DNA from: a virus
Strand: one strand, 5' to 3'
DNA: 64,000 nucleotides
IMG/VR virus record: IMGVR_UViG_3300017743_005089
Coordinates: 36,971 to 100,970 of that record
Below the pieces are notes generated by a model that had not been told where the DNA came from, did no database searches, and saw only the letters and a program-made list of their open reading frames with translations. The translations under genes and the position numbers were made by a program. Positions 4,208-60,943 of the stretch are shown in pieces; position 1 is the first letter of the stretch, and the number at the start of each line of letters is the position of its first letter.

Positions 4208-5055
4208 AAAACGTAGTTTATATAATAAATAATCTCCCATCGGACACCGATTTCGCGAACCCTGGTTACAAAAATGTAGCATGGGTCCCTCACTGCTTAA
4301 AGTCCTTGGAATCCTATTGTGATAAAATTAACGCAGATCTAAAGATCATATCCTCTAAAGATTTTCCAGCCTTTGCAGAGATAAATGATTACAATTTTAG
4401 CTTTTATCAAAAAAGCACTTTCATAAAGGTTTTAATGCTTCATGAATTCATGAAGACGGATTATGATAAATTTGCGCTTCTCGACCTGGACATGGTTGTA
4501 AGCAAGGATGCTGAAGATATTTTTGAAAGATACAAGGATGACCATTTTGTAATGCAGTATGGATTCAATGAAGCCGTAGTAAAAAAGAATGAAATATTTC
4601 TAAAGCAGTATTTAAAATCAATCCCTGCTGATGAATCTGTATACAGGTACAATGAAAAAACAAAAAGAAACATGCCTAAGTACAATTTAAACTTAGGATG
4701 CTATATAATGAGTAAAAAAATTGTTAGCAAGTTGACTAAAGTATTACCAGACCAGTATAGTTTCGTCTCTTTCTTAAAGGATAACAATTTAATAGACAAC
4801 CCCGTGTTAGAAGTTTTCGGAGAAAGAAAAGATTTTATAGATCAAGATTTATACGGTTTCGCTTATTCAAAAACAGACGCCCTAGATTACCACAAGCCCA
4901 TGGATTGGGTTTGGAATGCAAACTATCAGGCCTGCTTCCAAAAAGGAGATCAAAACAAAGATTTCAACCTGTGTCACCTTTGCGGCGAAGACGGCAAGCA
5001 GTTTCTTTTAGATAATTTAAATAACCCAGAAGTTATTTCTAGAATCGATGTATAG
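4204..5055 (+). CDS. GT-A glycosyltransferase (GT8/GT34-like)
   Basis: LLDLDMVV (DxD), NLGCYI, DQD, WNA, CHLCG. Confidence 0.7.
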   Translation: MKNVVYIINNLPSDTDFANPGYKNVAWVPHCLKSLESYCDKINADLKIISSKDFPAFAEINDYNFSFYQKSTFIKVLMLHEFMKTDYDKFALLDLDMVVSKDAEDIFERYKDDHFVMQYGFNEAVVKKNEIFLKQYLKSIPADESVYRYNEKTKRNMPKYNLNLGCYIMSKKIVSKLTKVLPDQYSFVSFLKDNNLIDNPVLEVFGERKDFIDQDLYGFAYSKTDALDYHKPMDWVWNANYQACFQKGDQNKDFNLCHLCGEDGKQFLLDNLNNPEVISRIDV

Positions 5056-5734
5056 CCACAAACATAAATTCATATACGTACATATACCCAAGTCTGCAGG
5101 CACCTTTGTAAAACATTATTTGCTTTCAAATATAGATTCTAACTATGAAAGTAATCAGAACCAACAGGACTATGATGATAAATACTGCGTTACCTGCGAA
5201 AGACCCCTATCATCTATAGTAAAAGAAATTCCAAATCACAAAGATTATTTTAAATTTACAGTTGTGAGAAATCCTTTTGATAGGGTCGTTTCAATGTTTT
5301 GTTACCTAGGGGGCTGGAAGTTTGACTATTTTGTCGAAAATAATATAGACTCTCCAATGATGCCCTACGTACAAGAATTCCACAAGTACTATATGTCTAA
5401 TGATTTTGATGGTTTCATAGACTGCGCCTACAAAGAAGGTCTCATTAAAAAATTTCATACTGGTTATTTCGAAAACTACATAGATAGAATAAGCGTTGAG
5501 GGAAAAATATGCATCAATAAATACTATAAGATGGAAAAGATTAAACTTTGCATTTCTGATTTGCGCAAAACTTTTAAGTTTAAAAGCAAAAAAGGGTTTA
5601 CAGATTGGAGGCAGAATAGTAGCTCAGAATATAAAAAAATAAAAAAATATAAGGACTACTACTCCCAATACAGTCGAGACTTTGTAGAAAATCATTTCGG
5701 CAGAGATTTGGATTATTTTGGCTATGGATTCTAA
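5048..5734 (+). CDS. Sulfotransferase family 2 protein
   Basis: HIPKSAGT (5'-PSB) and VRNPFDRVVS (3'-PB); D..YFGY tail. Confidence 0.85.
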   Translation: MYSHKHKFIYVHIPKSAGTFVKHYLLSNIDSNYESNQNQQDYDDKYCVTCERPLSSIVKEIPNHKDYFKFTVVRNPFDRVVSMFCYLGGWKFDYFVENNIDSPMMPYVQEFHKYYMSNDFDGFIDCAYKEGLIKKFHTGYFENYIDRISVEGKICINKYYKMEKIKLCISDLRKTFKFKSKKGFTDWRQNSSSEYKKIKKYKDYYSQYSRDFVENHFGRDLDYFGYGF

Positions 5735-7408: not shown

Positions 7409-8047
7409 ATGATTAGCCATAAACACAAATGTATATTTTTACATATCCCAAAAGTAGCAGGCACATCTGTTGAAAGGTTTTTGCGAAATGTTGACCCAAA
7501 TATACCAGCAAAAGTTTTAAGGAAGCGAGGCTTTTCTCATTTTTTAAATGACTATTTAGATTATTATGTATTTTCATTTGTCCGCAACCCATATGACCGT
7601 TTAGTTTCTGCTTGGAAATGGGGGCAACTTAAATTTGGGAAAGAAGGCGACTTGCCTTTTTACAACAAAGAACGTGCGGTATCATTCCAAGAATATGTTT
7701 TATTAACTACCGACTTTGGATATCGAAAAGACAATCAAAACTTATGGAGTGAATACGACGAATATCATACATTGCCTCAATTTAAATTTTTTCCTAATTT
7801 AAACGGAGGTCATTATTTTACAGATAAAATTAATCCTAATTTTACTTGTAATTTCATTGGGCGCTTTGAAAATTTACACGAAGATTTTAATAAGGTTTGC
7901 CCTAATATAGGGACAAAGGAATTTAAACTTCCCCATGCATACAACTCAAAAACTTTCAAAAAAACTTTTGACTGGACTGATTCATTAAAAGATAAAGTTC
8001 ATAATTATTATAAAAAAGATTTTGAATTATTTAATTATGACAAATGA
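7409..8047 (+). CDS. Sulfotransferase family 2 protein
   Basis: HIPKVAGT, VRNPYDRLVS, GRFENL, DFELFNY. Confidence 0.88.
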   Translation: MISHKHKCIFLHIPKVAGTSVERFLRNVDPNIPAKVLRKRGFSHFLNDYLDYYVFSFVRNPYDRLVSAWKWGQLKFGKEGDLPFYNKERAVSFQEYVLLTTDFGYRKDNQNLWSEYDEYHTLPQFKFFPNLNGGHYFTDKINPNFTCNFIGRFENLHEDFNKVCPNIGTKEFKLPHAYNSKTFKKTFDWTDSLKDKVHNYYKKDFELFNYDK

Positions 8048-8931: not shown

Positions 8932-9565
8932 AATACCGAAAGTTATTCATCAGATTTATATTGGCGAAAAACGAATTCCAGATCAACAATTAATATGGCA
9001 GCGAACCTGGAAAGATTATAACCCTGGATGGCAATTTATTTTTTGGGATGACGCAAAATTAAAAAATATAGGCTTTATTAATAAAGACGCATTTAAATAT
9101 TGCAAAAGCATAGCTTCAAAAGTTGATTTAATAAGGTATGAAATTATTTATAAATTTGGAGGCCTTTATATTGATACAGACTTTGAATGTCTAAAAAGTA
9201 TCGATTCATTTTTTCATGATAAAGATTTTATTGCATGCCGCCAAAACCCAAGTGGACCGACGATTGCTAATGGTTTTATTGCCGCTACCCCTCAACACCG
9301 AATTATCGAAAAATTAATCAATGATACTCCAAAAAGATGCGTTACTCATAAATCAAAAGGTTGCGTAGAAAAGTTCGGGCCACGTTTTCTTACCGATGTT
9401 ATAGATGAAATCTACGGTTCAGAATTTAAATATTCCAAAAATTTTGATCCAAAAAATATTTACCCTTATATGTGGACAAAAAGACATAGCCTTAATGATG
9501 ACTTTAAAAAGATTTACCCTGAATCATATGCAGTCCATCATTGGTCTAAAAGCTGGCAAAAATGA
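8915..9565 (+). CDS. GT32 (OCH1-like) glycosyltransferase
   Basis: IPKVIHQ, DLIRYEIIYKFGGLYIDTD, GP.FLT, HHWSKSW. Confidence 0.88.
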   Translation: MKYKIKIPKVIHQIYIGEKRIPDQQLIWQRTWKDYNPGWQFIFWDDAKLKNIGFINKDAFKYCKSIASKVDLIRYEIIYKFGGLYIDTDFECLKSIDSFFHDKDFIACRQNPSGPTIANGFIAATPQHRIIEKLINDTPKRCVTHKSKGCVEKFGPRFLTDVIDEIYGSEFKYSKNFDPKNIYPYMWTKRHSLNDDFKKIYPESYAVHHWSKSWQK

Positions 9566-10158
9566 TCGACCATAAAAACAAAATTATATTTGCACATATC
9601 CCAAAAACTGGCGGTACTAGTGTGGAAAAATTATTTCCTGAAGGTTTTGGTCCTCAGCACCATCCGCTATCTTGGTTCAAAAAACAGCGCCCCCATATTT
9701 ATAAAAAATATTTCAAGTTCTCCATATGCAGAAATCCTTATGACAAAATAGTTTCTGAATATTTTTGGCATGTGCATGATCCACTTAATCAATTCAAAGG
9801 TAGATTTCAATTTTTATCTTTTAATGAATTCGTTAAATTATTTTTTAAAATAGATGGTTCTTTTTTGGAATTTAAATACGATGGATGGTTTGAAATGCAT
9901 TTTGAAACACACCGCATGCCTCAAACGTTTTTCTTAGATCCCGTTTCGGATTTAGATTTTATTATAAGATTTGAAAATTTCCAAGAAGACTTCGATATCG
10001 TCTGCGAAAAAATTGCAATCCCCCAACAACAACTTCCACATCAAAACAAAACCAAACACAAATGCTATACCGAATACTACGACGACGAAACGCGAGAGAT
10101 CGTCGCAAAAAAGTACGCAAAAGACATTGAGTATTTCGGATATGAGTTTGGGTCATGA
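9562..10158 (+). CDS. Sulfotransferase family 2 protein
   Basis: HIPKTGGT, RNPYDKIVS, DIEYFGYEF. Confidence 0.88.
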   Translation: MIDHKNKIIFAHIPKTGGTSVEKLFPEGFGPQHHPLSWFKKQRPHIYKKYFKFSICRNPYDKIVSEYFWHVHDPLNQFKGRFQFLSFNEFVKLFFKIDGSFLEFKYDGWFEMHFETHRMPQTFFLDPVSDLDFIIRFENFQEDFDIVCEKIAIPQQQLPHQNKTKHKCYTEYYDDETREIVAKKYAKDIEYFGYEFGS

Positions 10159-10224
10159 ATAATTATTACTATTAAACCCCTTGATTATACTAATGTCGAA
10201 TTCCTAGACAAGCCAAATTGGTAA
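10155..10224 (+). pseudogene. Gene remnant or deletion scar
   Basis: First 19 nt are identical to the start of the 6521 gene; followed by an out-of-frame tail ending in TAA before the next ATG. Confidence 0.45.
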
Positions 10225-10225
10225 T

Positions 10226-12113: not shown

Positions 12114-12118
12114 TTACT

Positions 12119-13819
12119 ATGAACAATATACAAATAAAAACAGGGGCAAATTTAAGCCGCCTACTTCAATCTACAGTAAATATTCCTCAAGCTTTTACGG
12201 AGTTAGTTAAAAATTCCATACAAAATTTTTCTACATTTTGTCGCATTGATTTCAATAGCTCAAACGTAGTCATAGTTGACGACGGGCAAGGATTTGATCA
12301 TGAAAAAGACGAAAATGGCATGAATGGATTTGAGAAGTACTTTGTTTTTGGAAATTCATACGATTTAACTGGCGGCCAAGGAGTTAAACTTGGTCAAATG
12401 GGCATAGGCGGGAAGCTTGCAAACGATAAACTTTCCCATGAAACAGATATACATTGGACTATTGAAACAAAAAACAAACACGGCAAGTGCTTTCTTGTTG
12501 AGTATAAGCCTTCTGGCACTGAATTTCTAAATGAGTATTCGCCTTCCTTAACTGAAATTACCGAAGATGATTGTTCTATTGAAACTAAATCTGGAACTAA
12601 AATTACTATAGTTACATTAAAAGAAAATATACAAAAAGATGGCTGGCCATCTGGCGCAATCAAAGGAGAGCTCTGTACATTTTTTGGCTTCCTATTGCCT
12701 CAATTGGAAAAAGAAGGCAAGAAGTTTAATATCCACCTAAATGGTGAAAGTTTAGATTTTTCTTACAAACTCCCAGGGTCTAACATTCCAATTATTAGAC
12801 GCACGTTCAATTACGATTATTACGGAGAAATAAAAACAGGAAATATTGAGTTTAGATTATCTTTGATATACAACCGTGGCATAATTAAAAATCATCCTTT
12901 AAAAAACATTGACATTATATCAAAAGTTAAGATTTGCCCATTTTATTTATCAGATCAAGACATGCTTGAATCAACCTTAAGATGGATGGAAGATAAAAAT
13001 GGTGAAGAAATTGAATTTAAAGATAAAATTTACAACGTATTCAATCAATTGATTGGTTTTATATCTTGCGATGAGTTATCAGAAGTTATGGATAACACAG
13101 GTATGCCCGCTAAAGACTTATCTCACCATGGCCTGCGAAATGACCATCCTATTACTATTCCGTTTTACAACAGAGTATACAAGGTTATAGTCGAATGGAT
13201 AGTTGAATATATAAAGTTAAATCAAGAAGAAAAAATGAATATACTTGACGCCTTAGCTAATGAAATCTCTTCAATGTTGGCTGAATATTTTGAAGACGAG
13301 GATTTCTCTGACTTATGGGACGATGAAGAAGAAGAGGAAGATGATGACGAAATCATCGAAGAAACCCCAGAAGAAGAAGAGCGTAGAGAATTAGAAAAAT
13401 TTGCTGAATATGCTATCGAAAAAGAATGGAATTTTGAACCAGAGCCCGAAGAGGAGGAAGAGGAGCCTAAACCCGAAAATAATATTCCGCCTCTTTGGAA
13501 TAAATACAAAAATCAAAAGCCAAAACAATCCAAAAGACTAAGGTATAGGATTATTGATTTCGGAGAAGAACAGAAAAAATTAATGTCTAAGGTTGATGAT
13601 ACGTCTGACTTTACTATTTTAATTAATAATAGCAATCCAAAATTCCAAAGATTTTATAAAGAAAACTCACCTTTTCTTTTATCACTGCATATATCTGAAA
13701 TGTTAATCAGGGAAATTTCTATGTACAGAAACCCACTAGCTAGACCCTCAGATATAGATGAAAGCATTAGTGATTTTTATGAAAATAAGTATTCTCAAGT
13801 AAAAGAAAAAAGTGAATAG
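12119..13819 (+). CDS. GHKL/MORC-like ATPase with long acidic tract
   Basis: ELVKNS, DDGQG, GQMGIG, GTKITI Bergerat motifs; D/E-rich stretch around aa 390-450. Confidence 0.8.
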   Translation: MNNIQIKTGANLSRLLQSTVNIPQAFTELVKNSIQNFSTFCRIDFNSSNVVIVDDGQGFDHEKDENGMNGFEKYFVFGNSYDLTGGQGVKLGQMGIGGKLANDKLSHETDIHWTIETKNKHGKCFLVEYKPSGTEFLNEYSPSLTEITEDDCSIETKSGTKITIVTLKENIQKDGWPSGAIKGELCTFFGFLLPQLEKEGKKFNIHLNGESLDFSYKLPGSNIPIIRRTFNYDYYGEIKTGNIEFRLSLIYNRGIIKNHPLKNIDIISKVKICPFYLSDQDMLESTLRWMEDKNGEEIEFKDKIYNVFNQLIGFISCDELSEVMDNTGMPAKDLSHHGLRNDHPITIPFYNRVYKVIVEWIVEYIKLNQEEKMNILDALANEISSMLAEYFEDEDFSDLWDDEEEEEDDDEIIEETPEEEERRELEKFAEYAIEKEWNFEPEPEEEEEEPKPENNIPPLWNKYKNQKPKQSKRLRYRIIDFGEEQKKLMSKVDDTSDFTILINNSNPKFQRFYKENSPFLLSLHISEMLIREISMYRNPLARPSDIDESISDFYENKYSQVKEKSE

Positions 13820-14738
13820 AGTTATTGGTAATCCTGAAAACTTTGATTTGTCTTGTGAAGAAGATCGATTTAGGTTTGGAAAAGTTGTCATAGAGAAACA
13901 AAACGGACAACTATTAAATCATTATTACGATCACTCGCCCTGGAAGTTTAGCGCAAAAAATTCAAAAGCAGTTAGTTTTATCAAGCAAATAGAAAGAGCT
14001 GATACGTCTCTTTGTTTTCCAGATTTTGAACCAATTAAAATTTATTTTATTGATTTCCCGCCAAAAGCTCAAATCATTCATGAATCAAAAGAAGCTATTT
14101 TATTCCAATCATATATAGACAAACATGAGCCAGAATGCCCACCGAATCTAAAACTTCATCCTGATTTTATTTGCTGTCCTGATTTTACTTTCTGGGATTG
14201 GTGTGGAATGAAGTATGATCAATATTTTCCTAAGGTTCAAAACGCAGGAAAATTAAAACCAACTTCTCAAAAAATGTTTTGGCGTGGTACAAAATATCCC
14301 AAGCTTCGTGGTCCATTGGTGAATCTCAGCGAAAAATATCCAGACTTAATTGACGCTCAATTCTCAAAGCCTAATAAAAATGATGCTAATTTTATATCCC
14401 TGGAAGATGCTGTTGCTGGTTATTCTTATTTTATTGACCTACAAGCTTCTGGATGGAGTCCAAGAGTTAAATATTTTCTTCAATCACATCGTTTGACTTT
14501 CTTACAAGAACGCTTTCACAAAGCTTATTATGAAAAGTATCTAGTTCCAATGGAGCATTATATTCCAATCAAAAAAGATCTTTCTGATCTTGTGGAAAAA
14601 ATTAATTGGGCAAACGATAACCCTGAACACGTTAAAGAGATTATTGATAATGCTTTTGACTTTAGTTTGACTCATTTTTCTATTGATGCTGTAAATAAAA
14701 AATGGCTTGAAGTAATTAAGGCTTCTCAAAATGCATGA
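13812..14738 (+). CDS. GT90 (CAP10/POGLUT-like) glycosyltransferase
   Basis: FWRG..R, Y.YFID..GWSPRVKYFL, LVPMEHYIP...DLSDL.EKINW. Confidence 0.82.
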   Translation: MNRVIGNPENFDLSCEEDRFRFGKVVIEKQNGQLLNHYYDHSPWKFSAKNSKAVSFIKQIERADTSLCFPDFEPIKIYFIDFPPKAQIIHESKEAILFQSYIDKHEPECPPNLKLHPDFICCPDFTFWDWCGMKYDQYFPKVQNAGKLKPTSQKMFWRGTKYPKLRGPLVNLSEKYPDLIDAQFSKPNKNDANFISLEDAVAGYSYFIDLQASGWSPRVKYFLQSHRLTFLQERFHKAYYEKYLVPMEHYIPIKKDLSDLVEKINWANDNPEHVKEIIDNAFDFSLTHFSIDAVNKKWLEVIKASQNA

Positions 14739-15390
14739 TTTATACATATTAACTACGGCAATCGATAGGCCTGATTTACATAATCAGACATTACCACCAT
14801 TTTTTGACATACTTCAAAAACAAGGCATTAATTATAAATGGTTTATTAATTTAGACTCTCCATTTAAAAAAACACAAGAAGCTGTAGATAATTTCAAAAA
14901 CTTTACTTTAGGTACTCAAGATTTACATATATCAGACAAGGCTTGTTTTTATTCAGCAGCAAAACATGTGATCACCTCGGCTTACAAGGAACTCCAAAAC
15001 TTGGATGGTTATATTATGTGGCTTGAAGATGACTGGGACTTACTTATTCCATTTAATATGAGAGAATTAATTGACGGTAATTATGAATACATTGGTTTTC
15101 ACTTTCATCACTTTTTTGAGTTTTCATTTAACCCGACTATATGGAGTAAAGATTTCTTTGTTAAAAATGTATACGAACCCTTTGCAGCCTCAGAAGAGTC
15201 CATTGATCCAGAGCAACTACTCATTAATCACCATAAACAAACGAGATCTAAAAACCCCAATCACTTAAAAAATGTGAATCGAATTAATTTCAATGGAGTA
15301 TTTGAAGACGCTGGGAGAAAATGGGGGCAACAATATAATTTAAAAAAATGGAACAAAAACAAAGTAGGAGGAAGTGTTAGTTATGCCTAA
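14731..15390 (+). CDS. GT-A-like glycosyltransferase
   Basis: TTAIDRPDL, IMWLEDDW, FSFNPTIW; island context. Confidence 0.6.
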   Translation: MHDLYILTTAIDRPDLHNQTLPPFFDILQKQGINYKWFINLDSPFKKTQEAVDNFKNFTLGTQDLHISDKACFYSAAKHVITSAYKELQNLDGYIMWLEDDWDLLIPFNMRELIDGNYEYIGFHFHHFFEFSFNPTIWSKDFFVKNVYEPFAASEESIDPEQLLINHHKQTRSKNPNHLKNVNRINFNGVFEDAGRKWGQQYNLKKWNKNKVGGSVSYA

Positions 15391-16114
15391 AGCCTCCATA
15401 ATATTATCGTCCCATAATAACTTATCCGAACTTGAGTTAAGTATTGAAAGCTTAAAATACCAAACAGAAAAAGATTTCGAAATCATTATAGCGGATGATG
15501 GATCAACGGATGGCACTATAGAATATTTAGAAGAGCAAGGCGTAAAATATTTTAGCCGCCCAAATGAAGGGTATAGATTAGCCTACATATGGAATCGTGG
15601 CGCAGAATTAGCATCTGGAGATAGATTTATCTTTGGTAACTCAGATATTATATCTCATCCCAAAAGAATCGAAGAGCATTTATTGTGCGGTGATAATCTA
15701 GTTGCTGGAATTTATCCATCAATACCCATTGATTATGTGCATACCATAACCAAACACAAGATAAAATATGATTTTTGGTCGATAGATTTAATAGCTACAG
15801 AAGACAGAAGAAAAGATTATATTTCTGGCCTAAAAAAGCCTCAGTTAAATCATGGTAAAAAAATACCACCTCGATACATGTATGGAGGGAACTGGTCTTG
15901 CCCTGCTAATGTCTTTAAAAAACTTGGTGGACTTGACGAAGGATTTAAGGGCTGGGGTGGAGAAGATTTTGATTTAGCTAGAAGAGCTCAGCTAGATGAT
16001 CGCGACGTGATACTAAACATCAACTGCATGGGCTACCACCTCGACCATGATACGGTCAATAGGGATGAAACTAGATCACTCGGCAAAGGTTACTTTAATA
16101 AAAAATGGTCATAA
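15383..16114 (+). CDS. GT2 glycosyltransferase with GT7C-like C-terminus
   Basis: EIIIADDGSTD, WNRG, GGLDEGFKGWGGEDFDL, YHLDH; ATG at 15383 preferred. Confidence 0.85.
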   Translation: MPKASIILSSHNNLSELELSIESLKYQTEKDFEIIIADDGSTDGTIEYLEEQGVKYFSRPNEGYRLAYIWNRGAELASGDRFIFGNSDIISHPKRIEEHLLCGDNLVAGIYPSIPIDYVHTITKHKIKYDFWSIDLIATEDRRKDYISGLKKPQLNHGKKIPPRYMYGGNWSCPANVFKKLGGLDEGFKGWGGEDFDLARRAQLDDRDVILNINCMGYHLDHDTVNRDETRSLGKGYFNKKWS

Positions 16115-16131
16115 CACTAACATAAAATATA

Positions 16132-16932
16132 ATGAAACCTCAAATAATAGATGCATTTATGCTGAACAACGAATTGGACGCTCTCAACTTCAGGCTCCAT
16201 GAACTAAACAAATATGTAGACAAGTTCGTAATCTATGAGAACTCATGGACTCATAGCGGCAATAAGAAACCTCTCCATTTTGAAGAAAACAAGCAAATGT
16301 TTTCTGAATTTTCTAATAAGATAGTTCACATAAAAAGCAATACACGAGGGAAAGACAACTGGAAAAGGGAGTTTGCTCAAAGATATGAAGTTTTGCTTAA
16401 AGGTGTATCTTCTCTTAATTTAAATGATAACGATATTGTTTCACTTTGTGACTTAGATGAAGTCATAGACCCTAAATTAATCTTAAACTACAAAGAAGAA
16501 TTGCCCAGCAATAGCCCGCTTTTAGTTTGCCCTCATTGGTTCAATGTTTCTTGGGATTGCTATCTTGGGGCATGGAATCATCACAGCATTGTATTTTCTT
16601 ATTGGGGGGAACTGAAAAAAAGATTAGGCCACTGGAGGGGTACGCATTGCGGATGGCGATGGGACCACCCTAAATTCCCCAAGCCAATCCAAAGAAAAGA
16701 ACTTTCTGGCTGGCATGCATCTTGGTTTATGGATCCTGAAGATTTAATTGTGAAGCTTAAAAGCTTTGCTCATAATGGCGAAGATTGGGTTTCGAAGATA
16801 TTAAAAGATATTAATATAATTGACAGCAGAATTAAAGAGGGCAAAGATGTGACTGGAAGATTTAACATTAAAAAGTTTGATTCCCCTTATCCTAGATATA
16901 AGGATTTAATTAATTATGGAATTAAAAAATAA
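16132..16932 (+). CDS. GT17 (MGAT3-like GlcNAc transferase)
   Basis: NNELD.L..RL.EL..YVD.FVI.E, W.RE..QR, DLDE, GWH.SWF, KLKSFAH. Confidence 0.85.
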   Translation: MKPQIIDAFMLNNELDALNFRLHELNKYVDKFVIYENSWTHSGNKKPLHFEENKQMFSEFSNKIVHIKSNTRGKDNWKREFAQRYEVLLKGVSSLNLNDNDIVSLCDLDEVIDPKLILNYKEELPSNSPLLVCPHWFNVSWDCYLGAWNHHSIVFSYWGELKKRLGHWRGTHCGWRWDHPKFPKPIQRKELSGWHASWFMDPEDLIVKLKSFAHNGEDWVSKILKDINIIDSRIKEGKDVTGRFNIKKFDSPYPRYKDLINYGIKK

Positions 16933-17656
16933 AACTGCTTCTATTTGTGGCTGTGCGAAAAATATAGCAGAACACTTACCTTTATCAATTTCTAAAATTG
17001 AAATGATTTCTTCTGTTTTTAAAGAAGTAAAAATTTTTATTTTCGAGAACGATTCAACAGATGATACGCTGGTAATACTTAATCAATGGGCAAGCGATAA
17101 TAAATCAGTAGAAGTTATATCGGAAAACAACATCCCACTTAAAGCCACTAAAGGGTGGTATAAAAGAGTTGAAACACTGTCTTATGCGCGCAATAAGGTT
17201 TTAGAAGCCACAAAAAAATATGAACCCGATTATTATATTATGATTGATCTGGACGAAGTTATTAGCAAGCTGAGTCTAGATGGTTTTTTAAGTTCTTTTA
17301 ATCTTGAGGTTGACTGGGACATGGTTGGAGCAAATCAAACAGGCCACTATTACGACTTGTGGGTCTTAAGAACCTTTGATGATTGGATGAATTATGACTG
17401 TTGGGAAGAATGCGTACCAAAGCATGGTTATGAAAAATGCATAGAATCAAAAAAACGAAACATTCCAATTGACTCAGAACCCATAGAGGTTTTATCCTGC
17501 TTTGGAGGCCTTGGTATCTACAAGTTCAGCCATGTAAAAAATTGCAACTATACTAAATCAGGAAAAAGAACAGTTGAACACACATATTTACACAACCAAA
17601 TGAGAGAAAAAAATAATTCTCGTTTTTTTATCAACCCCAAGATGATAGGATACTAA
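16916..17656 (+). CDS. GT69/CAP59-like mannosyltransferase-fold protein
   Basis: ENDSTDDT, L..ARN, IDLD, YYDLW.LR, V.SCFGGLGIY, EH. Confidence 0.75.
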   Translation: MELKNKTASICGCAKNIAEHLPLSISKIEMISSVFKEVKIFIFENDSTDDTLVILNQWASDNKSVEVISENNIPLKATKGWYKRVETLSYARNKVLEATKKYEPDYYIMIDLDEVISKLSLDGFLSSFNLEVDWDMVGANQTGHYYDLWVLRTFDDWMNYDCWEECVPKHGYEKCIESKKRNIPIDSEPIEVLSCFGGLGIYKFSHVKNCNYTKSGKRTVEHTYLHNQMREKNNSRFFINPKMIGY

Positions 17657-18303
17657 TGAAAAAAATTTTTAAAGTTTTTGTGTGTTGTCATAAATATATC
17701 CACAGGGTTAAAGATATAAAAGCTCGTGTCAACAAATGGAAGCTTGGTGATTACTTAATTTTTGTCGGCGGCCAAGAGCAAAAACAGTTGGAAGAAAATG
17801 TTATTCAGTTAAAATGCCGCGATCTATACGAAGATCTGCCAGAAAAAATGTTTACTATTTATAGGTATTTAGCAGGTAACGGATACGCTGATAAATATGA
17901 CTATTTCTGGAAAATAGATGATGATATTGATTTCATTAGGTGGAACGCTCATAGAGAAACACAACTCTCAGATTGTTTGGTGAATGATTACTGCGGATTA
18001 AAAGTCTTAGACAAGCCAGGAAAAAGAGGGTGGCATATCGGTAGAGTGCAAAAAGATTCGCCATGGTATAACAAAAAATACAATGGAAAATATGTTGATT
18101 GGGCTGACGGAGGATCTACTTATTTCTTAAGTTCTAATTCTATAAATAAATGGAAGAATTTTTATGAACTTTCAGATATAAGATTACACCATATATACGA
18201 AGACCTTGCAGTAGGTTTGTTTTTAAAAAAATGCAATATATTACCCATGCAAATAGACCCTTGGAAGGATAAACCTATACTGAGGTTTAATATAAATAAA
18301 TGA
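17656..18303 (+). CDS. GT31-like (beta-1,3-galactosyltransferase/Fringe) glycosyltransferase
   Basis: D.YEDLPEK, FWKIDDD, GG..YFLS, YEDLAVG. Confidence 0.8.
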   Translation: MKKIFKVFVCCHKYIHRVKDIKARVNKWKLGDYLIFVGGQEQKQLEENVIQLKCRDLYEDLPEKMFTIYRYLAGNGYADKYDYFWKIDDDIDFIRWNAHRETQLSDCLVNDYCGLKVLDKPGKRGWHIGRVQKDSPWYNKKYNGKYVDWADGGSTYFLSSNSINKWKNFYELSDIRLHHIYEDLAVGLFLKKCNILPMQIDPWKDKPILRFNINK

Positions 18304-19073
18304 AAGTGTTTAGCTCCAGCGACCAAGGTCTTTTTGGTAGTTCTTTATTTTGGGTATTGAACAGGCTGCCTTATTTTTATGATAAAAAGATGTACCCTAA
18401 CTGGGAAATACTAAACATTAACCATGGCGACCCTAATAATAATGATAATATAGTTCCTGAAATTATATATCCTATAAAATTATCAGATTTACCTTCAAAA
18501 AAAGTAAACTTAAACACGGTACCAACTCATAATTTTACAGACTTCAATCAAGCTAATTTTTATTTTAATCATTTTTTTCAATTTAATTTTGAAATAATTC
18601 AACTAGCAGACAGCATTTCTAAAAATTTTAAAAACACTCTTGGTATACATTTTAGAGGCAATGACAAAACAAAAACTAATCACGAATCTATCTGCATAAA
18701 TGAAAATCAGTTCTTTAAAAAAATAGAAAAGTTTGCTGAATCAAATAAGTTTGATAGTATTTTCTTATTGTCTGACGACATACAAATTAAAAACAATATA
18801 AAAAATCTATTGTTTGAAAAATTTAAATGCGACATCATTCTTAATGACTTCCCTTTTACTTTCCATATGGATCAAAAAAATATGGATAATAGACTTGAAT
18901 TAACCAAGCAATCTGTTGCAGAAATGCTCGCCTTATCAAAATGCAAATCAGTTCTAAAAAGCCACTCCGCCTTTTCAAGCTGGGCAAAGATAATCAACCC
19001 TGAACTCGAAATGTATCGAGTGAATGAATGCAAAAATAATTGGTTTCCTGATTACTATTTACCTGAGCTGTAA
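18300..19073 (+). CDS. Fucosyltransferase-like GT-B enzyme
   Basis: LGIHFRGNDK, IFLLSDD, EMLALSKC...SAFS. Confidence 0.72.
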   Translation: MKVFSSSDQGLFGSSLFWVLNRLPYFYDKKMYPNWEILNINHGDPNNNDNIVPEIIYPIKLSDLPSKKVNLNTVPTHNFTDFNQANFYFNHFFQFNFEIIQLADSISKNFKNTLGIHFRGNDKTKTNHESICINENQFFKKIEKFAESNKFDSIFLLSDDIQIKNNIKNLLFEKFKCDIILNDFPFTFHMDQKNMDNRLELTKQSVAEMLALSKCKSVLKSHSAFSSWAKIINPELEMYRVNECKNNWFPDYYLPEL

Positions 19074-19774
19074 TGAAAGCTCTTTGTTTTACTTTTGACC
19101 GCAATATGCCAATAATGGAATATGTTTTATATACATATTTTAAGTGCTGGCCAGATAATCCTTTTGTTTTTTACGTTCCGTGGAATGAAGTTAAACCCAG
19201 CTACTTAGTTGATAAATATGGGTCCAATAAAATAAAATTGTTACAAACAGATAGCGCGGTAAAGCCTACAATCCGAACTCTACTTTCGGCAGTTGAGCCC
19301 AATGAGTTTATATGGTGGGCTCAGGACGATAAATACATAATTGATTTTAAAAATAAACAAATTATACAAGACTTACACCAATACAATTCTCAAAATATTG
19401 GCGGATTTATGTTTACTAAAAATTCTGATGCCGAAAAAAGTCACCTTAAAACAAAAAATAATTTTGGTAAGCACGAATTGATTAAGAAAAAAAATCATCA
19501 CCAAATATTTCAGCCACAATTAATTAAAAAGGAGGTTATAGAATATCTTTACCTTCACGATTCCTTAAATGAGCATTACCCCTTACATAATCTTTATAAA
19601 ATTATGAGCTTTAAACCCATTAAAGACTTATACTCCACACAAGTTAACCACATAAGTATCGCTGAATCACTTGACCAAGGTAGAATAACATCAAATTTAG
19701 TGTATCATATGAATGAGGATAATTTTGAAATACCAGATTTACCTCGATGCAACAAAACAATGATTTATTATTAA
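19073..19774 (+). CDS. Putative glycosyltransferase-like protein
   Basis: FIWWAQDDKY DxD-like segment; island context only. Confidence 0.45.
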   Translation: MKALCFTFDRNMPIMEYVLYTYFKCWPDNPFVFYVPWNEVKPSYLVDKYGSNKIKLLQTDSAVKPTIRTLLSAVEPNEFIWWAQDDKYIIDFKNKQIIQDLHQYNSQNIGGFMFTKNSDAEKSHLKTKNNFGKHELIKKKNHHQIFQPQLIKKEVIEYLYLHDSLNEHYPLHNLYKIMSFKPIKDLYSTQVNHISIAESLDQGRITSNLVYHMNEDNFEIPDLPRCNKTMIYY

Positions 19775-19775
19775 A

Positions 19776-51963: not shown

Positions 51964-52332
51964 GGGCGTGTACTGGATTCGATTTAATTTGGATTAGTGC
52001 ACTGCAAGCGGGAGATTGTGTTCGGCTCCCAAAAAAAACACAACTTTTGTAACTGGCAATAAAGCTCGTGCAAAAACTTTTGGTTTCCGCAAGGCTTCCA
52101 AGGTTGCTTTAGCAGCTTAAGCGCTGCTACCTCTCCCTTCTCGACGCAGATAAAGAAGACGAGGGGTCATCTATCTGCAAGACAGAAAAGGTTTACTTGT
52201 TAATAATCTGTAAATAATTGAAACAAGTAGTTAGATGTTAATATCAATAACTATAAAAAAAATTAACTAAGCTTGTAGATGTGTATTTTTGAAGATTTAA
52301 AGACGGCGGTTCAACTCCGCCCACGTCCACCA
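51964..52332 (+). ncRNA. ssrA: tmRNA (one-piece)
   Basis: 5' GGGCGTG pairs with 3' CACGTCC-ACCA including G3:U; GGATTCGA D-loop; T-arm GGCGGTTCAACTCCGCC; tag frame 52055-52120 ends ALAA-TAA. Confidence 0.95.
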
Positions 52333-52343: not shown

Positions 52344-52374
52344 AAGCCCCCTATTTCTAGGGGGCTTTTCTTTT
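52344..52374 (+). terminator. Intrinsic terminator after tmRNA, between convergent genes
   Basis: AAGCCCCCTA-TTTC-TAGGGGGCTT followed by a T tract. Confidence 0.85.
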
Positions 52375-52409: not shown

Positions 52410-53216
52410 TTATTCGGGGCGCTTTCCTAGTGGTTTTCCATCTTGTCCGATTTCACCCGCTCTAATTTTTGTGGCGGATACTTCTTGTAATTCTTTACTT
52501 AGTTCAATCATCTCTATGTTGTACCCAACCCCTCTTCCGTAAAAAATATCCATAATATTGGGGAGCTCGACAACTTTAATTTTATTCCCGAATTCAATGC
52601 AAGCAGATTCTATTTCTTTCTTAACTTGCTCGAAATTATATGGATTCTTATCGTCAATTCCGCCGACATCTCTTAGCGCTATACAGCATTGACCTGTTCT
52701 TCTTACAGCTTCTGCCACAAGATTTTTGTGACCAACATGAAAAGGTTGGTACCTACCAATTAAAAGCGCCGTTGGAGCCTGATTGTCCCAAGCTTCGGTT
52801 TTATTCAATTCCTTTAAGGTTTTCTCTACCCATTCTTCTGGCGTTCCAGTTGTAAGCCTTAAATCATAATTCATAGGTCTTTGAAACATCTTATTAGTAT
52901 CTTCGTATCTACCCTCCATTATACGGTCCACCCATATAACAAAGTCTGCATTAAAAGCGGCTCTAGTTTCTTGAGTCGGGCATACAAAGTCAGCTATAAC
53001 ATAAGATCCCCCCATTTTTGCCCAATCACATAGTTTCCCCATCCTTGTGGCATGAGCAAGCCTATCTTCGGCTGAAAAGCCTAGCTCGGAGTATATGTCC
53101 TGCCTTACGGCATCTGCATTGAACCATGCTGCGTTTAACTTAGATACTAATTTTTCAGCTAATGTAGTTTTTCCTGATCCAGGAAGACCCATTATGAGAA
53201 TCTTTCTTTTTGTCAT
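52410..53216 (-). CDS. APS-kinase-like P-loop domain fused to an HxGH nucleotidyltransferase
   Basis: GLPGSGKTT, NAD.VR, LGFSAEDR, FVCP; then GRYQPFHVGH, YGRGVG, SATKIR. Confidence 0.8.
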   Translation of the reverse strand: MTKRKILIMGLPGSGKTTLAEKLVSKLNAAWFNADAVRQDIYSELGFSAEDRLAHATRMGKLCDWAKMGGSYVIADFVCPTQETRAAFNADFVIWVDRIMEGRYEDTNKMFQRPMNYDLRLTTGTPEEWVEKTLKELNKTEAWDNQAPTALLIGRYQPFHVGHKNLVAEAVRRTGQCCIALRDVGGIDDKNPYNFEQVKKEIESACIEFGNKIKVVELPNIMDIFYGRGVGYNIEMIELSKELQEVSATKIRAGEIGQDGKPLGKRPE

Positions 53217-59211: not shown

Positions 59212-59649
59212 ATGACTCTCAGGGAGCTAATAAAAGAATGCACTTATAAAGATGTATTCAACATTATATATAAAAAATTCCTTCAGAAAAAAAAATGTTC
59301 TAATTCAAAAATTATAGAGTATGACATACAATACAATAAAATATTTAAAGAATTAATGAACCTCCCATATAACCCAAAAGATAATTTAAAAATTTATTTA
59401 GCCAATGTTGGTCCAGAAAAAAAAATTGACATTGATGCATGCTTATTGGACGAGCTTGAAGATGAGCTTTTTTCGCTTGATTTTGTTGATTGGTCCGATA
59501 TAATAGACTTAGAATTATACGACTCAGTGAAAATGACTCGAGCCGAATGCTTGGCTCATATATTATGGGAAATAACCTTCTGGGGCTTCTCAAGAGAGGC
59601 AATCAATAAACAAAAGAAAAAAACATTCGATACAGAAAATGAAAAATGA
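59212..59649 (+). CDS. Conserved hypothetical protein
   Basis: SLDFVDW, AHILWEITFWG pattern. Confidence 0.6.
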   Translation: MTLRELIKECTYKDVFNIIYKKFLQKKKCSNSKIIEYDIQYNKIFKELMNLPYNPKDNLKIYLANVGPEKKIDIDACLLDELEDELFSLDFVDWSDIIDLELYDSVKMTRAECLAHILWEITFWGFSREAINKQKKKTFDTENEK

Positions 59650-60058
59650 TGACAGTATACGTCCTTGGGGGCATTATGAAATTTTACTTGACGAAGATTA
59701 CTGCAAAGTAAAAAGGATTTACGTCAAACCAAATCAAAGATTAAGCTACCAGTACCACCATAAAAGACAAGAAGCTTGGACCGTTGTTTCGGGTATAGCC
59801 AGAATAACTATAGACGATGAAACAAAGGATTACCATGCTGGAGATACGGTCTTGATTCCATTGGGGGCAAAACACAGAATGGCAAATCCTGAAAGTGATC
59901 AAAATATGATTTTAATCGAAGTTCAAACGGGCACTTATTTCGGAGAAGACGACATCGTAAGGGTTCAGGATGATTATGACAGGCCTGAATCTCACGAAGT
60001 TATTAACTTATGGAAACCTAAATGGGATGTAATTGAAGATGAAAAAAGTAGCGATTAG
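59639..60058 (+). CDS. Mannose-6-phosphate isomerase type II cupin domain
   Basis: RPWG.Y, VKRI.VKP, LS.Q.HH.R.E.W, HR..N, EVQ.G.Y.GEDDIVR. Confidence 0.88.
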   Translation: MKNDDSIRPWGHYEILLDEDYCKVKRIYVKPNQRLSYQYHHKRQEAWTVVSGIARITIDDETKDYHAGDTVLIPLGAKHRMANPESDQNMILIEVQTGTYFGEDDIVRVQDDYDRPESHEVINLWKPKWDVIEDEKSSD

Positions 60059-60437
60059 TGGTTATTTTGACCCAATACATATTGGTCATTTAGAATATAT
60101 TCGTTTAGCGCGAGAACTTGGCAATCATCTGATCGTCATAGTCAATAACGATAAACAAGCCTCCCTTAAAAAAGGTAAATCTTTCATGTGTGAAGATGAT
60201 AGGCTCCAAATAGTTTCCCAAATCAAAGGAGTTGACGAAGCAATATTATCTATTGATGAAGATAAAAGCGTATGCAAGACCCTTGATTTAATCAAGCCTG
60301 ATGTATTTGCTAATGGAGGCGATAGAAGCAATTCAGAAATACCAGAATTTAAAATTTGCAAACAAAACAACACTGAAGTTGTAGATGGTCTCGGTTCTAA
60401 AATCCGCTCCTCTTCAGAGCTTACGGGTATTAAATGA
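60039..60437 (+). CDS. Cytidylyl/adenylyltransferase (TagD/RfaE-like)
   Basis: SG.FDPIHIGH, VNND, R, PD.FANGGD, SSS. Confidence 0.85.
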   Translation: MKKVAISGYFDPIHIGHLEYIRLARELGNHLIVIVNNDKQASLKKGKSFMCEDDRLQIVSQIKGVDEAILSIDEDKSVCKTLDLIKPDVFANGGDRSNSEIPEFKICKQNNTEVVDGLGSKIRSSSELTGIK

Positions 60438-60943
60438 ATTTATATAAACTACCAACTCACCAAAAATCTCCCAAGATAGTCTACGGAGTTATCGAAATAG
60501 AGGAAGGCTCTAAAAATAAGTACGAGTACGATGGTGGCTTAGGGGTTTTTATGTACGACAGGTGCTTAACCTCTGCCATGGTGTATCCAGCAAGTTACGG
60601 GTTTATACCTGGAACTCTATGCGAGGATGGAGACCCTCTTGACATATTAGTTATAAGCCCAGAACCTATAAAAAGAGCAACTATTGTTGAGTGTAAAGTT
60701 GTCGGTTGCCTAGATATGGATGACGAAGGGGATAAAGATTACAAAATACTAGCAGTGCCTAATTTTTATACTCGAAAATATTGCGGACTTAAAGATATAG
60801 AAGAGTCTTTCCTTTTGATCGCAAAGAATTTCTTCGCTCATTATAAAGATTTGTCAATGAGTGGAGATAAAGTTAATATTAACGGCTGGATAGACAAAGA
60901 AGAAACCCTTAAAATAATAGAAGACAGGATTATAAAAAAATGA
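60434..60943 (+). CDS. ppa: Family I inorganic pyrophosphatase
   Basis: EI..GS.NKYE, DR, YP..YGFIP.T..EDGDPLD, DEG..D.K, FF..YK. Confidence 0.93.
   Translation: MNLYKLPTHQKSPKIVYGVIEIEEGSKNKYEYDGGLGVFMYDRCLTSAMVYPASYGFIPGTLCEDGDPLDILVISPEPIKRATIVECKVVGCLDMDDEGDKDYKILAVPNFYTRKYCGLKDIEESFLLIAKNFFAHYKDLSMSGDKVNINGWIDKEETLKIIEDRIIKK

What the first reader, a model, noticed from the sequence alone, without database searches (positions are those of the whole stretch)
52410..53216. Candidate minimal bifunctional PAPS synthase feeding seven sulfotransferases
Seen: a 268-aa fusion of a CysC-like kinase (P-loop, LGFS.EDR, shortened lid) and an HxGH domain with GRYQPFHVGH, YGRGVG and SATKIR; it is the only minus-strand gene. 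The window also has seven sulfotransferase-like genes and a pyrophosphatase. Known: ATP sulfurylase is an HxGH-superfamily enzyme (RNPxHxxH, GRD, SxT.xR), metazoan PAPSS has the same kinase-first order at over twice the size, and PPase pulls the reaction. Inference: a stripped-down PAPS synthase. Main alternative: the C-domain also matches NadM-type NMN adenylyltransferases.
Basis: partly seen in the sequence, partly recalled or inferred. Interest (0 to 1): 0.85.

Follow-up and report, generated by a model that had tools for sequence, protein, structure and literature searches.

The report
Phage mini PAPS-synthase candidate fusion
A marine phage that carries several sulfate-adding enzymes also encodes a small two-part protein, a trimmed APS kinase joined to a tiny NMNAT-like adenylyltransferase, that probably makes their sulfate donor PAPS; the same gene pair tracks the APS reductase genes of SAR11 ocean bacteria, which mostly lack any known ATP sulfurylase, but no enzyme assay exists.

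Summary
The 268-aa minus-strand ORF and its two domains are real.

- **N-domain (residues 1-141):** an APS-kinase-fold P-loop kinase. It keeps K16, D35, R38, F47 and R52 but lacks about 23 lid residues.
- **C-domain (142-268):** a minimal HxGH nucleotidyltransferase. Its nearest relatives are NadM/archaeal NMN adenylyltransferases, not Sat.

Context still favours sulfate activation:
- Of 13 near-complete fusion-bearing phage records, 10 carry Sulfotransfer_2 genes.
- None of 14 such phages has a canonical ATP sulfurylase.
- In Bradyrhizobium the gene abuts TPR-Sulfotransfer_3 genes.
- In phage phiRSL1 a kinase-only homologue clusters with a sulfotransferase-like gene.
- In 151 SAR11 genomes the (mostly split) kinase/NTase pair co-occurs with AprA (96 both, 11 pair only, 4 AprA only, 40 neither). 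Sat is present in only 6.

Evidence against:
- Casjensviridae phages carry the fusion next to a NADAR gene and have no detectable sulfotransferase.
- Some SAR11 genomes also have a canonical CysC.
- Only 8 of 32 independently sampled ST-bearing phage records carry a family member.

Best reading (about 0.45): a bifunctional PAPS synthase with an unconventional sulfurylase. The activity is untested. This scan has flagged the same fusion before on related phage DNA.

The parts
52410..53216 (-). Whole gene: 268-aa kinase-nucleotidyltransferase fusion (P0001)
   Evidence: ORF found. phrog_10255 matches the full length. The AlphaFold model has pLDDT 93.9 and pTM 0.78.
52794..53216 (-). N-domain, residues 1-141: APS-kinase-like P-loop kinase with a shortened lid
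   Evidence: PF01583 at 4e-12. The top ~40 listed Foldseek matches are APS kinases or APSK domains. K16, D35, R38, F47 and R52 are conserved. About 23 lid residues are missing compared with canonical CysC.
53166..53189 (-). P-loop GLPGSGKT (residues 10-17)
   Evidence: Read from the sequence. K16 is invariant in 55 homologues.
52413..52793 (-). C-domain, residues 142-268: minimal HxGH nucleotidyltransferase, candidate sulfate adenylyltransferase
52728..52757 (-). GRYQPFHVGH (residues 154-163), NMNAT-type HxGH motif
   Evidence: G154, Q157, H160 and H163 are invariant in alignment A2, and P158 and G162 also in A3. R155 is nearly invariant.
52521..52541 (-). YGRGVGY loop (residues 226-232); the family consensus is YGRDVGY
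   Evidence: G227, R228 and G231 are invariant in 55 homologues. NMNAT profiles have no counterpart at this position.
52461..52478 (-). SATKIR (residues 247-252), the SxTxxR motif
   Evidence: R252 is invariant and S247 is nearly invariant. The motif aligns with SGTEIR of M. jannaschii NMNAT.
5048..5734 (+). Sulfotransfer_2 paralogue 1 (presumed PAPS consumer)
   Evidence: PF03567 at 1.2e-13. The 5'-PSB motif HIPKxxGT and the 3'-PB motif RNPxDRxVS are kept.
7409..8047 (+). Sulfotransfer_2 paralogue 2
   Evidence: PF03567 at 4.5e-17.
9562..10158 (+). Sulfotransfer_2 paralogue 3
   Evidence: PF03567 at 3.7e-14.
20316..20906 (+). Sulfotransfer_2 paralogue 4
   Evidence: PF03567 at 2.7e-14.
60434..60943 (+). 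Inorganic pyrophosphatase (could pull PPi-releasing reactions; the link to this gene is inferred)
   Evidence: PF00719 at 5.3e-46, 156.7 bits.

Best explanation
The gene encodes a compact bifunctional enzyme of sulfate activation.

**Inferred steps.**
- The C-terminal domain is about 125 aa and descends from the NMNAT branch of the HxGH nucleotidyltransferases. I infer that it adenylylates sulfate (ATP + sulfate -> APS + PPi).
- The N-terminal APS-kinase-like domain then phosphorylates the 3'-OH of APS to give PAPS.
- PAPS feeds the phage's own Sulfotransfer_2 enzymes, in a host likely to lack a canonical sulfate-activation route.
- A phage pyrophosphatase may help pull the first step.
- In SAR11 bacteria the homologous, mostly split, gene pair would handle the APS made by AprBA. 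That would be either the reverse Sat-like reaction or conversion to PAPS.

**What is shown.** The two-domain architecture, the APS-kinase fold and its conserved residues, the NTase catalytic motifs, and the genomic associations.

**What is not shown.** Both substrate identities, above all sulfate for the C-domain.
For: **Architecture and fold**
- The two-domain model is confident: pLDDT 93.9.
- The top ~40 listed Foldseek matches for the N-domain are APS kinases or APSK domains; a sugar kinase and T4 PNK appear only at ranks 45-47.
- PF01583 scores above its gathering cut-off.
- K16, D35, R38, F47, R52, P80 and R85 are conserved. They align with canonical CysC.
- The C-domain keeps invariant HxGH and SxTxxR motifs. 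It also has extra invariant or near-invariant arginines, R182 and R228, that are not part of the NMNAT profile match.

**Association with sulfotransferases**
- The window's sulfotransferases keep both PAPS-binding motifs.
- Sulfotransfer_2 genes lie within 3 genes of the fusion in 14 viral loci, including lineages only about 44% identical.
- 24 of 46 fusion-bearing viral records carry PF03567, as do 10 of the 13 that are at least 90% complete.
- In the reverse direction, 8 of 32 independently sampled ST-bearing viral records carry a family member.
- In Bradyrhizobium and relatives the gene abuts TPR-Sulfotransfer_3 genes.
- In phage phiRSL1 a kinase-only homologue clusters with an annotated sulfotransferase-like gene.

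**A gap where the sulfurylase should be**
- No PF01747 ATP sulfurylase was found in 14 phage genomes with both STs and the fusion. Ten of these are at least 90% complete.

**SAR11**
- The gene lies about 3 kb upstream of aprB-aprA, in a same-strand run of sulfur-metabolism genes.
- Across 151 genomes: pair plus AprA 96, pair only 11, AprA only 4, neither 40. The odds ratio is 87, without phylogenetic correction.
- Sat is present in 6 of 151. Of the 96 AprA-positive genomes without Sat, 92 have the pair.
- A complete Pelagibacter chromosome has the pair, a CysC and STs, but no Sat or CysD.
- Smith et al. 2016 (PMC5069961) state that SAR11 lacks sat and cysDNCHIJ. They list 'cysC' in exactly the strains that have aprA.
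- Splitting into two overlapping ORFs in most SAR11 genomes fits two linked enzyme activities.
Against: **The C-domain does not look like a sulfurylase by sequence**
- Its closest relatives are NMN adenylyltransferases. ATP sulfurylase is absent from sequence and profile searches at E<=10.
- Against real Sat, hhalign gives only 8.7% probability.
- The sulfate-binding RNP arginine of Sat has no aligned counterpart. The motif here is the NMNAT type.

**The kinase departs from canonical CysC**
- It lacks about 23 lid residues.
- It fails the NCBIfam CysC equivalog cut-off: 41.2 bits against 138.7.

**Co-occurrence is incomplete**
- Casjensviridae phages and Stenotrophomonas phage DLP_6 carry the full fusion but have no Sulfotransfer_1, _2 or _3 match where searched. 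In the Casjensviridae an upstream NADAR gene overlaps the fusion gene.
- Four SAR11 genomes also have a canonical full-length CysC, so the kinase would be redundant there.
- Three of the four ST-bearing viral records that are at least 90% complete lack the family.
- In this window the gene sits in a nucleotide-metabolism block, 30 kb from the glycan island.
- The SAR11 co-occurrence is not corrected for shared ancestry.
Confidence: 0.45

Rival explanations
1. Half right. The N-domain is a genuine APS kinase that converts host-made APS (from CysDN, Sat or AprBA) into PAPS for the sulfotransferases. The C-domain does something other than sulfate adenylylation, for example NMN/NaMN adenylyltransfer or another adenylyl or cytidylyl transfer. 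It is co-inherited for an unrelated or regulatory reason.
For: - All the kinase evidence applies here too.
- C-domain sequence and profile searches find only NMNATs.
- Kinase-only family members exist in phages with sulfotransferases: phiRSL1, G234 and L085/G043.
- AprBA could supply APS in SAR11.
Against: - The two domains stay together, fused or as overlapping ORFs, across phages and Alphaproteobacteria. Catalytic motifs are invariant in both.
- In SAR11 the NTase tracks AprA rather than being universal, as an essential NAD enzyme would be.
- The C-domain lacks the second half of the NMNAT profile.
- Phages with up to 11 STs and no Sat still keep the full fusion.
Confidence: 0.2
2. The fusion makes a PAPS-like donor that is not PAPS. 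The NTase nucleotidylates some other phospho- or oxyanion compound X. The kinase then adds the 3'-phosphate, giving a 3'-phospho-nucleoside-5'-phospho-X donor used by sulfotransferase-fold or other transferases. Two analogies, both from my own knowledge: PPAT plus dephospho-CoA kinase in CoA synthesis, and the CysC-like cytidine diphosphoramidate kinase of Campylobacter.
For: - The logic of an NTase paired with a 3'-kinase.
- The lid deletion and the failed CysC equivalog score suggest a changed substrate.
- The fusion occurs without sulfotransferases in Casjensviridae.
- Canonical CysC co-resides with it in some SAR11 genomes.
Against: - The window's STs keep ordinary 5'-PSB and 3'-PB motifs.
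- The association with AprBA, whose product is APS itself, points to sulfate.
- No accessory genes for another donor pathway recur next to the gene.
Confidence: 0.12
3. An NAD salvage enzyme in reversed NadR order. The kinase phosphorylates nicotinamide riboside and the C-domain adenylylates NMN to NAD. In phages this could counter NAD-depleting defence.
For: - The GRYQPFHVGH motif.
- The best PDB and NCBIfam matches for the C-domain are NadM, archaeal NMNAT and NadR.
- A NADAR gene overlaps the fusion gene in Casjensviridae.
- The local neighbours in the window are nucleotide-metabolism genes.
Against: - The kinase is APS-kinase-like. The NadR-type AAA_28 match is below its cut-off: 23.5 against 27.
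- The top ~40 listed fold matches are APS kinases.
- All NMNAT equivalog cut-offs are missed by a wide margin: 31 against 397, and 21 against 181.
- Only the first half of the NMNAT profile aligns.
- No NADAR is present in this record.
- The recurrent context is sulfotransferases and AprBA, not NAD genes.
Confidence: 0.08
4. A small-molecule kinase plus cytidylyltransferase that activates a glycan substituent, for example a CDP-alcohol or NDP-sugar. It would resemble HldE or LicA/LicC and serve the glycan islands.
For: - PF01467 membership.
- The gene is embedded among glycosyltransferases, epimerases, UDP-galactopyranose mutase and TET-associated GT in many loci.
Against: - The kinase keeps the residues that align with the nucleotide-substrate contacts of APS kinases.
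- The HxGH motif is the GRFQP (NMNAT) type, not the GxFD type of cytidylyltransferases. The window's separate NTase at 60033-60437 does have the GxFD type.
- The SAR11 AprBA association is unexplained by this reading.
Confidence: 0.08

Closest known systems
Metazoan bifunctional PAPS synthase PAPSS1/2 (PDB 1x6v, 1xjq, 2ofw)
   Same: An APS-kinase domain comes first and an HxGH-superfamily adenylyltransferase second, on one chain. The kinase domains superpose: the Foldseek top hits are 2ofw and 1xjq.
   Different: - PAPSS is over 600 aa, with a Sat-type sulfurylase (PF01747, an RNPxHxxH motif and a GRD loop) and a full kinase lid.
- The protein here is 268 aa.
- Its C-domain is NMNAT-like with no PF01747 signal.
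- About 23 lid residues are deleted.
Canonical APS kinase CysC (PF01583, TIGR00455; for example 2yvu, 7yq0, 1m7g)
   Same: The fold, the P-loop, the Asp/Arg of the DGDxxR region, the aromatic residue plus Arg of the LGFS..DR region, and an FxxP motif.
   Different: - Only the first 91 of 152 Pfam positions match.
- The lid is shortened.
- The score is 41.2 bits against an equivalog cut-off of 138.7.
- The protein co-exists with true CysC in some SAR11 genomes.
NadM and archaeal NMN adenylyltransferases (2qjt, 2qjo, 1f9a, 1ej2)
   Same: The GRFQPFHxGH motif, an NPF segment and the SxTxxR motif. These are the best sequence, profile and Foldseek matches for the C-domain.
   Different: - The C-domain is about 45 residues shorter.
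- The profile aligns only through about position 77, and again at the SxTxxR motif.
- The intervening segment is replaced by an invariant YGRDVGY loop.
- Equivalog cut-offs are missed by a wide margin.
Sat-type ATP sulfurylase (PF01747; for example 1v47, 1r6x; SAR11 Sat)
   Different: - No sequence-level match.
- hhalign probability is 8.7%.
- The GRD loops do not align.
- There is no PUA-like N-domain.
- The C-domain is roughly a third of the size.
PPAT plus dephospho-CoA kinase (CoA synthase logic)
   Different: The kinase here is APS-kinase-like, not CoaE-like. Genomic context is sulfotransferases and AprBA rather than CoA biosynthesis.

Membership tests
APS kinase (CysC, PF01583 / TIGR00455) | Pfam gathering score reached | tested here: met
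   46.9 bits against a cut-off of 21.1, but only profile positions 5-91 of 152.
APS kinase (CysC, PF01583 / TIGR00455) | NCBIfam equivalog cut-off | tested here: not met
   TIGR00455 scores 41.2 bits against a cut-off of 138.7.
APS kinase (CysC, PF01583 / TIGR00455) | P-loop, Asp and Arg of the DGDxxR region, and aromatic plus Arg of the LGFSxxDR region | tested here: met
   K16, D35, R38, F47 and R52 align with canonical APS kinases and are invariant or nearly so in the family.
APS kinase (CysC, PF01583 / TIGR00455) | Full-length mobile lid | tested here: not met
   Gaps of 5 and 18 residues relative to four SAR11 CysC proteins.
APS kinase (CysC, PF01583 / TIGR00455) | APS kinase fold | tested here: met
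   The top ~40 listed Foldseek matches are APS kinases or APSK domains, with target-normalised TM-score up to 0.79.
APS kinase (CysC, PF01583 / TIGR00455) | Phosphorylates APS to PAPS | not testable with these tools
   This needs an enzyme assay.
Sat-type ATP sulfurylase (PF01747) | Family HMM match | tested here: not met
   No PF01747 hit in the hmmscan or in the six-frame search of the record. No ATP sulfurylase at E<=10 in PDB sequence or profile searches.
Sat-type ATP sulfurylase (PF01747) | QxRNPxHxxH motif | tested here: not met
   The motif is GRYQPFHVGH, the NMNAT type. The His pair aligns with HxxH in hhalign, but no RNP arginine does.
Sat-type ATP sulfurylase (PF01747) | GRDHAG loop in register | tested here: not met
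   hhalign places the family's YGR loop opposite Sat's Y-A-G-P segment. That lies about 22 residues before Sat's VGRDHAG. Probability is 8.7%.
Sat-type ATP sulfurylase (PF01747) | Shared catalytic-domain fold | tested here: inconclusive
NadM / archaeal NMN adenylyltransferase | GRFQPFHxGH and SxTxxR motifs | tested here: met
NadM / archaeal NMN adenylyltransferase | NCBIfam equivalog cut-offs | tested here: not met
   NF003786 scores 31.3 against 397. TIGR01527 scores 21.2 against 181.2.
NadM / archaeal NMN adenylyltransferase | Complete domain, including the second half that carries the NMN-binding segment (the role of that segment is from my own knowledge) | tested here: not met
   The profile aligns only at positions 8-77 and at the SxTxxR motif. 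About 46 residues of 1f9a (64-109) face about 21 residues here.
NadR (NMNAT plus ribosylnicotinamide kinase) | NMNAT-then-kinase order, with an AAA_28-type kinase | tested here: not met
   The order is reversed. AAA_28 scores 23.5 against a cut-off of 27. TIGR01526 scores 29.9 against 341.
Bifunctional PAPS synthase (functional class) | Kinase and adenylyltransferase on one chain, co-occurring with PAPS users | tested here: met
   The co-occurrence is not universal.

The most novel reading that the evidence does not exclude
The ~125-aa NMNAT-derived domain is a third, unrecognised class of ATP sulfurylase (sulfate adenylyltransferase). Fused to or paired with a lid-less APS kinase, it would be the missing partner of AprBA in most SAR11 cells. 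It would also be the means by which their phages make PAPS to sulfate glycans in hosts that cannot otherwise activate sulfate.
Probability: 0.4. Interest if true: 0.9.

Novelty: new variant of a known kind. Interest (0 to 1): 0.7.

Why it matters
**If the C-domain adenylylates sulfate**
- It would be the smallest known enzyme for that reaction.
- It would represent an independent recruitment within the HxGH superfamily.
- It would fill a recognised gap. SAR11, among the most abundant marine bacteria, has APS reductase but no sat or cysDN (PMC5069961), so how it handles APS and obtains PAPS is unexplained.

**For phage biology**
- It would show that large marine phages bring their own sulfate-activation step to feed multi-copy sulfotransferase islands.
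- That implies sulfated virion or host-surface glycans.

**Practical value**
- The protein is small, soluble-looking and easy to assay, so the question is directly testable.
- A 268-aa PAPS synthase would also be useful for in vitro sulfation.

Tried and rejected
I used the search for related loci instead.
- **Other ST families and NADAR.** PF00685, PF13469 and NADAR (PF08719) were sought in the window's own record and none was found.
- **A single conserved neighbour.** There is none. Context is variable across 82 viral loci.
- **Literature.** Searches for phage, SAR11, APS kinase, sulfotransferase and DUF2061 found no characterisation of this family. Iyer et al. 2010 (PMC2938197) mention sulfotransferase/PAPS-synthetase operons in bacteria but not this protein.
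- **Protein atlas.** It returned only automatically named 'cytidyltransferase' viral clusters, which adds nothing.
- **Second NTase.** The stand-alone NTase at 60033-60437 is not a paralogue of the C-domain. Only the HxGH decapeptide matches.
The match to Sat was tested and rejected.
- **High-GC genomes.** My simple ORF caller failed on these, giving 'no target ORF'. The Bradyrhizobium-type context therefore rests on the subset where the gene was called.
- **Phage lineage and host.** A DnaB-like helicase found only distant isolates. The host is not established. SAR11 is suggested only by GC content and by the homologues.
- **Not attempted.** Complex prediction and read mapping were not run. 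They would not have decided the chemistry.
Full report
**Observation.** The window holds an ATG-initiated ORF of 268 aa at 52410-53216 on the minus strand.
- Pfam assigns residues 6-87 to APS_kinase. The score is 46.9 bits against a cut-off of 21.1, but only positions 5-91 of the 152-position profile match.
- Pfam assigns residues 152-176 to CTP_transf_like, with 26.5 bits against a cut-off of 21.
- NCBIfam gives sub-threshold matches to CysC models for the N-half and to NadM/archaeal NMNAT models for the C-half.
- PHROG phrog_10255 ('kinase') matches end to end at 2.6e-52.
- All the quoted motifs are present.

The context claims need trimming.
- Four Sulfotransfer_2 genes are solid: 5048-5734, 7409-8047, 9562-10158 and 20316-20906. 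Two more candidates are marginal and one has no support.
- The pyrophosphatase at 60434-60943 is real.
- Locally the gene lies in a nucleotide-metabolism and repair block: a deoxyribosyltransferase-like gene, UvdE, dUTPase, a resolvase-like nuclease and a dNMP kinase. The glycan island at 2640-22467 is 30 kb away.

**The protein.** An alignment of 55 diverse full-length homologues (33-84% identity) shows conservation in both halves.
- K16, R38, G227, R228, G231 and R252 are invariant.
- D35, F47, R52, P80, R85, D106, T107, P114, G154, R155, Q157, P158, H160, G162, H163, R182, P219, Y226, V230, Y232 and S247 are nearly invariant.
- AlphaFold gives a confident two-domain model, with pLDDT 93.9 and pTM 0.78.
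- With the whole model, the top ~40 listed Foldseek matches are APS kinases or APSK domains of bifunctional enzymes. A sugar kinase and T4 polynucleotide kinase appear only at ranks 45-47.
- Aligned with four canonical CysC proteins taken from SAR11 genomes, the kinase keeps the P-loop Lys, D35, R38, R52, R85 and P114. It lacks about 23 lid residues, in gaps of 5 and 18.

**The C-domain.** I modelled it alone (pLDDT 93.8).
- By sequence and profile its only significant solved relatives are NadM and archaeal NMN adenylyltransferases: 4.5e-9 for 2qjt and 2.8e-7 for 1f9a.
- Only the first ~70 profile positions and the SxTxxR motif align. About 46 residues of the M. jannaschii enzyme face about 21 residues here, which include the invariant YGRDVGY loop.
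- No ATP sulfurylase appears even at E<=10.
- Foldseek ranks NadM first, then PPAT and pantothenate synthetase.
The probability is 8.7%. The HxGH pair aligns with HxxH, but the YGR loop falls opposite Sat's Y-A-G-P segment, about 22 residues before VGRDHAG.
- If this domain is a sulfurylase, it derives from the NMNAT branch and not from Sat.

**Distribution.** The family is very large.
- More than 7,000 clusters at 90% identity match at E<=1e-5 among the capped set of candidates scored.
- 2,565 representatives at 50% identity match.
- Besides fusions there are kinase-only forms, NTase-only forms, and forms with the kinase joined to a DUF4118 membrane domain.
- Among isolated phages, full fusions occur in Casjensviridae of Xylella, Stenotrophomonas and Xanthomonas, in a Clavibacter phage and in Stenotrophomonas phage DLP_6. 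Kinase-only forms occur in Ralstonia jumbo phages.

**Phage context.** I fetched 80 viral loci (39-91% identity) and clustered their ORFs.
- No neighbour is universal.
- The second most frequent family within three genes of the fusion is the Sulfotransfer_2 cluster, found in 14 loci. These include lineages only about 44% identical, with three different local arrangements.
- At whole-record level, 24 of 46 fusion-bearing records carry PF03567, often in 2-11 copies. So do 10 of the 13 that are at least 90% complete.
- None of 14 such phage genomes has a Sat-type sulfurylase.
- The window's sulfotransferases retain the 5'-phosphosulfate and 3'-phosphate binding motifs. They should therefore need a 3'-phosphorylated donor.
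- In phiRSL1 the kinase-only homologue lies in one cluster with two other nucleotidyltransferases and an annotated sulfotransferase-like gene.
- In the reverse direction, 8 of 32 ST-bearing viral records that were not chosen for the fusion carry a family member. Only 1 of the 4 that are at least 90% complete does.
- The gene is strongly enriched with sulfotransferases but is not obligatory for them.
- Lineages without sulfotransferases still place it among glycan genes: UDP-galactopyranose mutase, GT2, GT25, GT90, epimerases, methyltransferases and a TET-associated glycosyltransferase.

**Cellular homologues.** A scan of species-representative genomes found the family at 50-58% identity in many Alphaproteobacteria: Pelagibacteraceae, Bradyrhizobium, Xanthobacteraceae, Hyphomicrobiaceae and others.
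- In Bradyrhizobium and relatives it directly abuts TPR-Sulfotransfer_3 genes. That is a second, unrelated sulfotransferase family.
- In SAR11 it is usually two overlapping ORFs, a kinase of about 137 aa and an NTase of about 130 aa, and is fused in a minority.
- In two SAR11 genomes it lies about 3 kb upstream of aprB-aprA. The same-strand run also contains a Cys/Met PLP enzyme and an MFS transporter, and an inositol-monophosphatase-family gene lies nearby.
- Across 151 Pelagibacteraceae genomes of at least 85% completeness, strong matches to the family and AprA distribute as 96 both, 11 family only, 4 AprA only and 40 neither. The odds ratio is 87 and Fisher p is 7e-22, uncorrected for phylogeny.
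- Sat is present in 6 of 151. Of the 96 AprA-positive genomes without Sat, 92 carry the pair.
- One of the 151 genomes (G187) is unpublished. It contributes one count to the 'both' cell, and the result does not depend on it.
- A complete Pelagibacter chromosome has the pair, a canonical CysC and sulfotransferases, but neither Sat nor CysD.
- Smith et al. 2016 (PMC5069961) state that SAR11 lacks cysDNCHIJ and sat. Their table lists 'cysC' in exactly the strains that have aprA.

**Interpretation.** The most economical reading of all contexts is that the family acts on APS.
- The kinase half most likely makes PAPS.
- The NTase half is the best available candidate for the missing ATP + sulfate <-> APS + PPi step. 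In phages it would run forward to feed sulfotransferases. In SAR11 it may run in either direction beside AprBA.
- I give the full bifunctional reading about 0.45.

**Evidence against**
- The NTase's nearest relatives are NMNATs.
- No sulfate-binding signature can be shown.
- The kinase lid is truncated, and canonical CysC co-exists with the family in four SAR11 genomes.
- Casjensviridae pair the gene with an overlapping NADAR gene, and neither they nor DLP_6 have a detectable sulfotransferase.

**Rivals**
- A true APS kinase with an unrelated NTase: 0.2.
- A PAPS-like donor of another group: 0.12.
- NadR-like NAD salvage: 0.08.
- Kinase plus cytidylyltransferase for a glycan substituent: 0.08.

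**Novelty and earlier notes.**
- No paper in the searchable library describes the family.
- This scan has flagged the same fusion on several related phage genomes. Earlier follow-up agents reached similar conclusions, including the SAR11/AprBA link.
- I ran my SAR11 and Bradyrhizobium analyses before reading those notes. They are repeats of an idea, not independent evidence.
  - the failed GRD alignment;
  - the explicit lid deletion against SAR11 CysC;
  - the Bradyrhizobium TPR-Sulfotransfer_3 adjacency;
  - the phiRSL1 cluster;
  - the reverse co-occurrence figure of 8 in 32;
  - the Casjensviridae/NADAR counter-example.

Noticed in passing
window 51964-52332 (+), hairpin 52344-52367: ARAGORN calls a phage tmRNA with a basic tag, GNKARAKTFGFRKASKVALAA. 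A GC-rich bidirectional terminator-like hairpin separates it from the convergent 3' end of the fusion gene.
   Followed up: partly
window 2640-22467: A 20-kb glycan-modification island. It holds four Sulfotransfer_2 paralogues, a NodZ-like fucosyltransferase (6521-7408), GT92-like, Gly_transf_sug, Nucleotid_trans, GT90 and epimerase/dehydratase genes, two Methyltransf_24-cluster genes, and an odd 566-aa HATPase_c_3 protein at 12119-13819.
   Followed up: partly
window 59639-60943: A module of a PMI-type cupin (59639-60058), a stand-alone GxFD-type cytidylyltransferase-like protein (60033-60437) and inorganic pyrophosphatase (60434-60943). The NTase is not a paralogue of the fusion's C-domain.
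   Followed up: partly
L043, L045, L049, L055-L059, L061, L064-L066, L071, L072, L077 (gene just downstream of the fusion): A ~70-aa DUF2061 membrane protein follows the fusion gene directly in 15 divergent phage loci. In other homologues the kinase domain is fused to the DUF4118 membrane domain. A membrane link for this family is unexplained.
   Followed up: no
L012, L014, L020, L021, L023, L024, L026, L027, L031 (neighbour of the fusion): A 426-aa DUF1501 protein (375 bits) sits next to the fusion gene on the opposite strand in 9 close relatives. Its role is unknown.
   Followed up: no
L001 5559-6735; L002 5559-6735: In Casjensviridae phages (Xylella Bacata, Stenotrophomonas Bhz60) a NADAR-domain gene overlaps the start of the fusion gene by 8 bases. 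These 56-kb genomes have no detectable sulfotransferase.
   Followed up: partly
L081-L083 (gene downstream of the fusion): A 512-aa TET-associated glycosyltransferase (PF20691) immediately follows the fusion gene (cluster 88). This hints at use in DNA hypermodification clusters in some phages.
   Followed up: no
L167 8001-8776 and about 100 other Pelagibacteraceae genomes: In most SAR11 genomes the family is two overlapping ORFs (kinase, then NTase) rather than a fusion. The pair co-occurs with aprA, and in some genomes lies within 3 kb of aprBA.
   Followed up: yes
L168 4998-10414 (Ralstonia phage phiRSL1 ORF238-ORF232): A kinase-only family member is clustered with two sugar-nucleotidyltransferase-like genes and an annotated sulfotransferase-like gene.
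   Followed up: no
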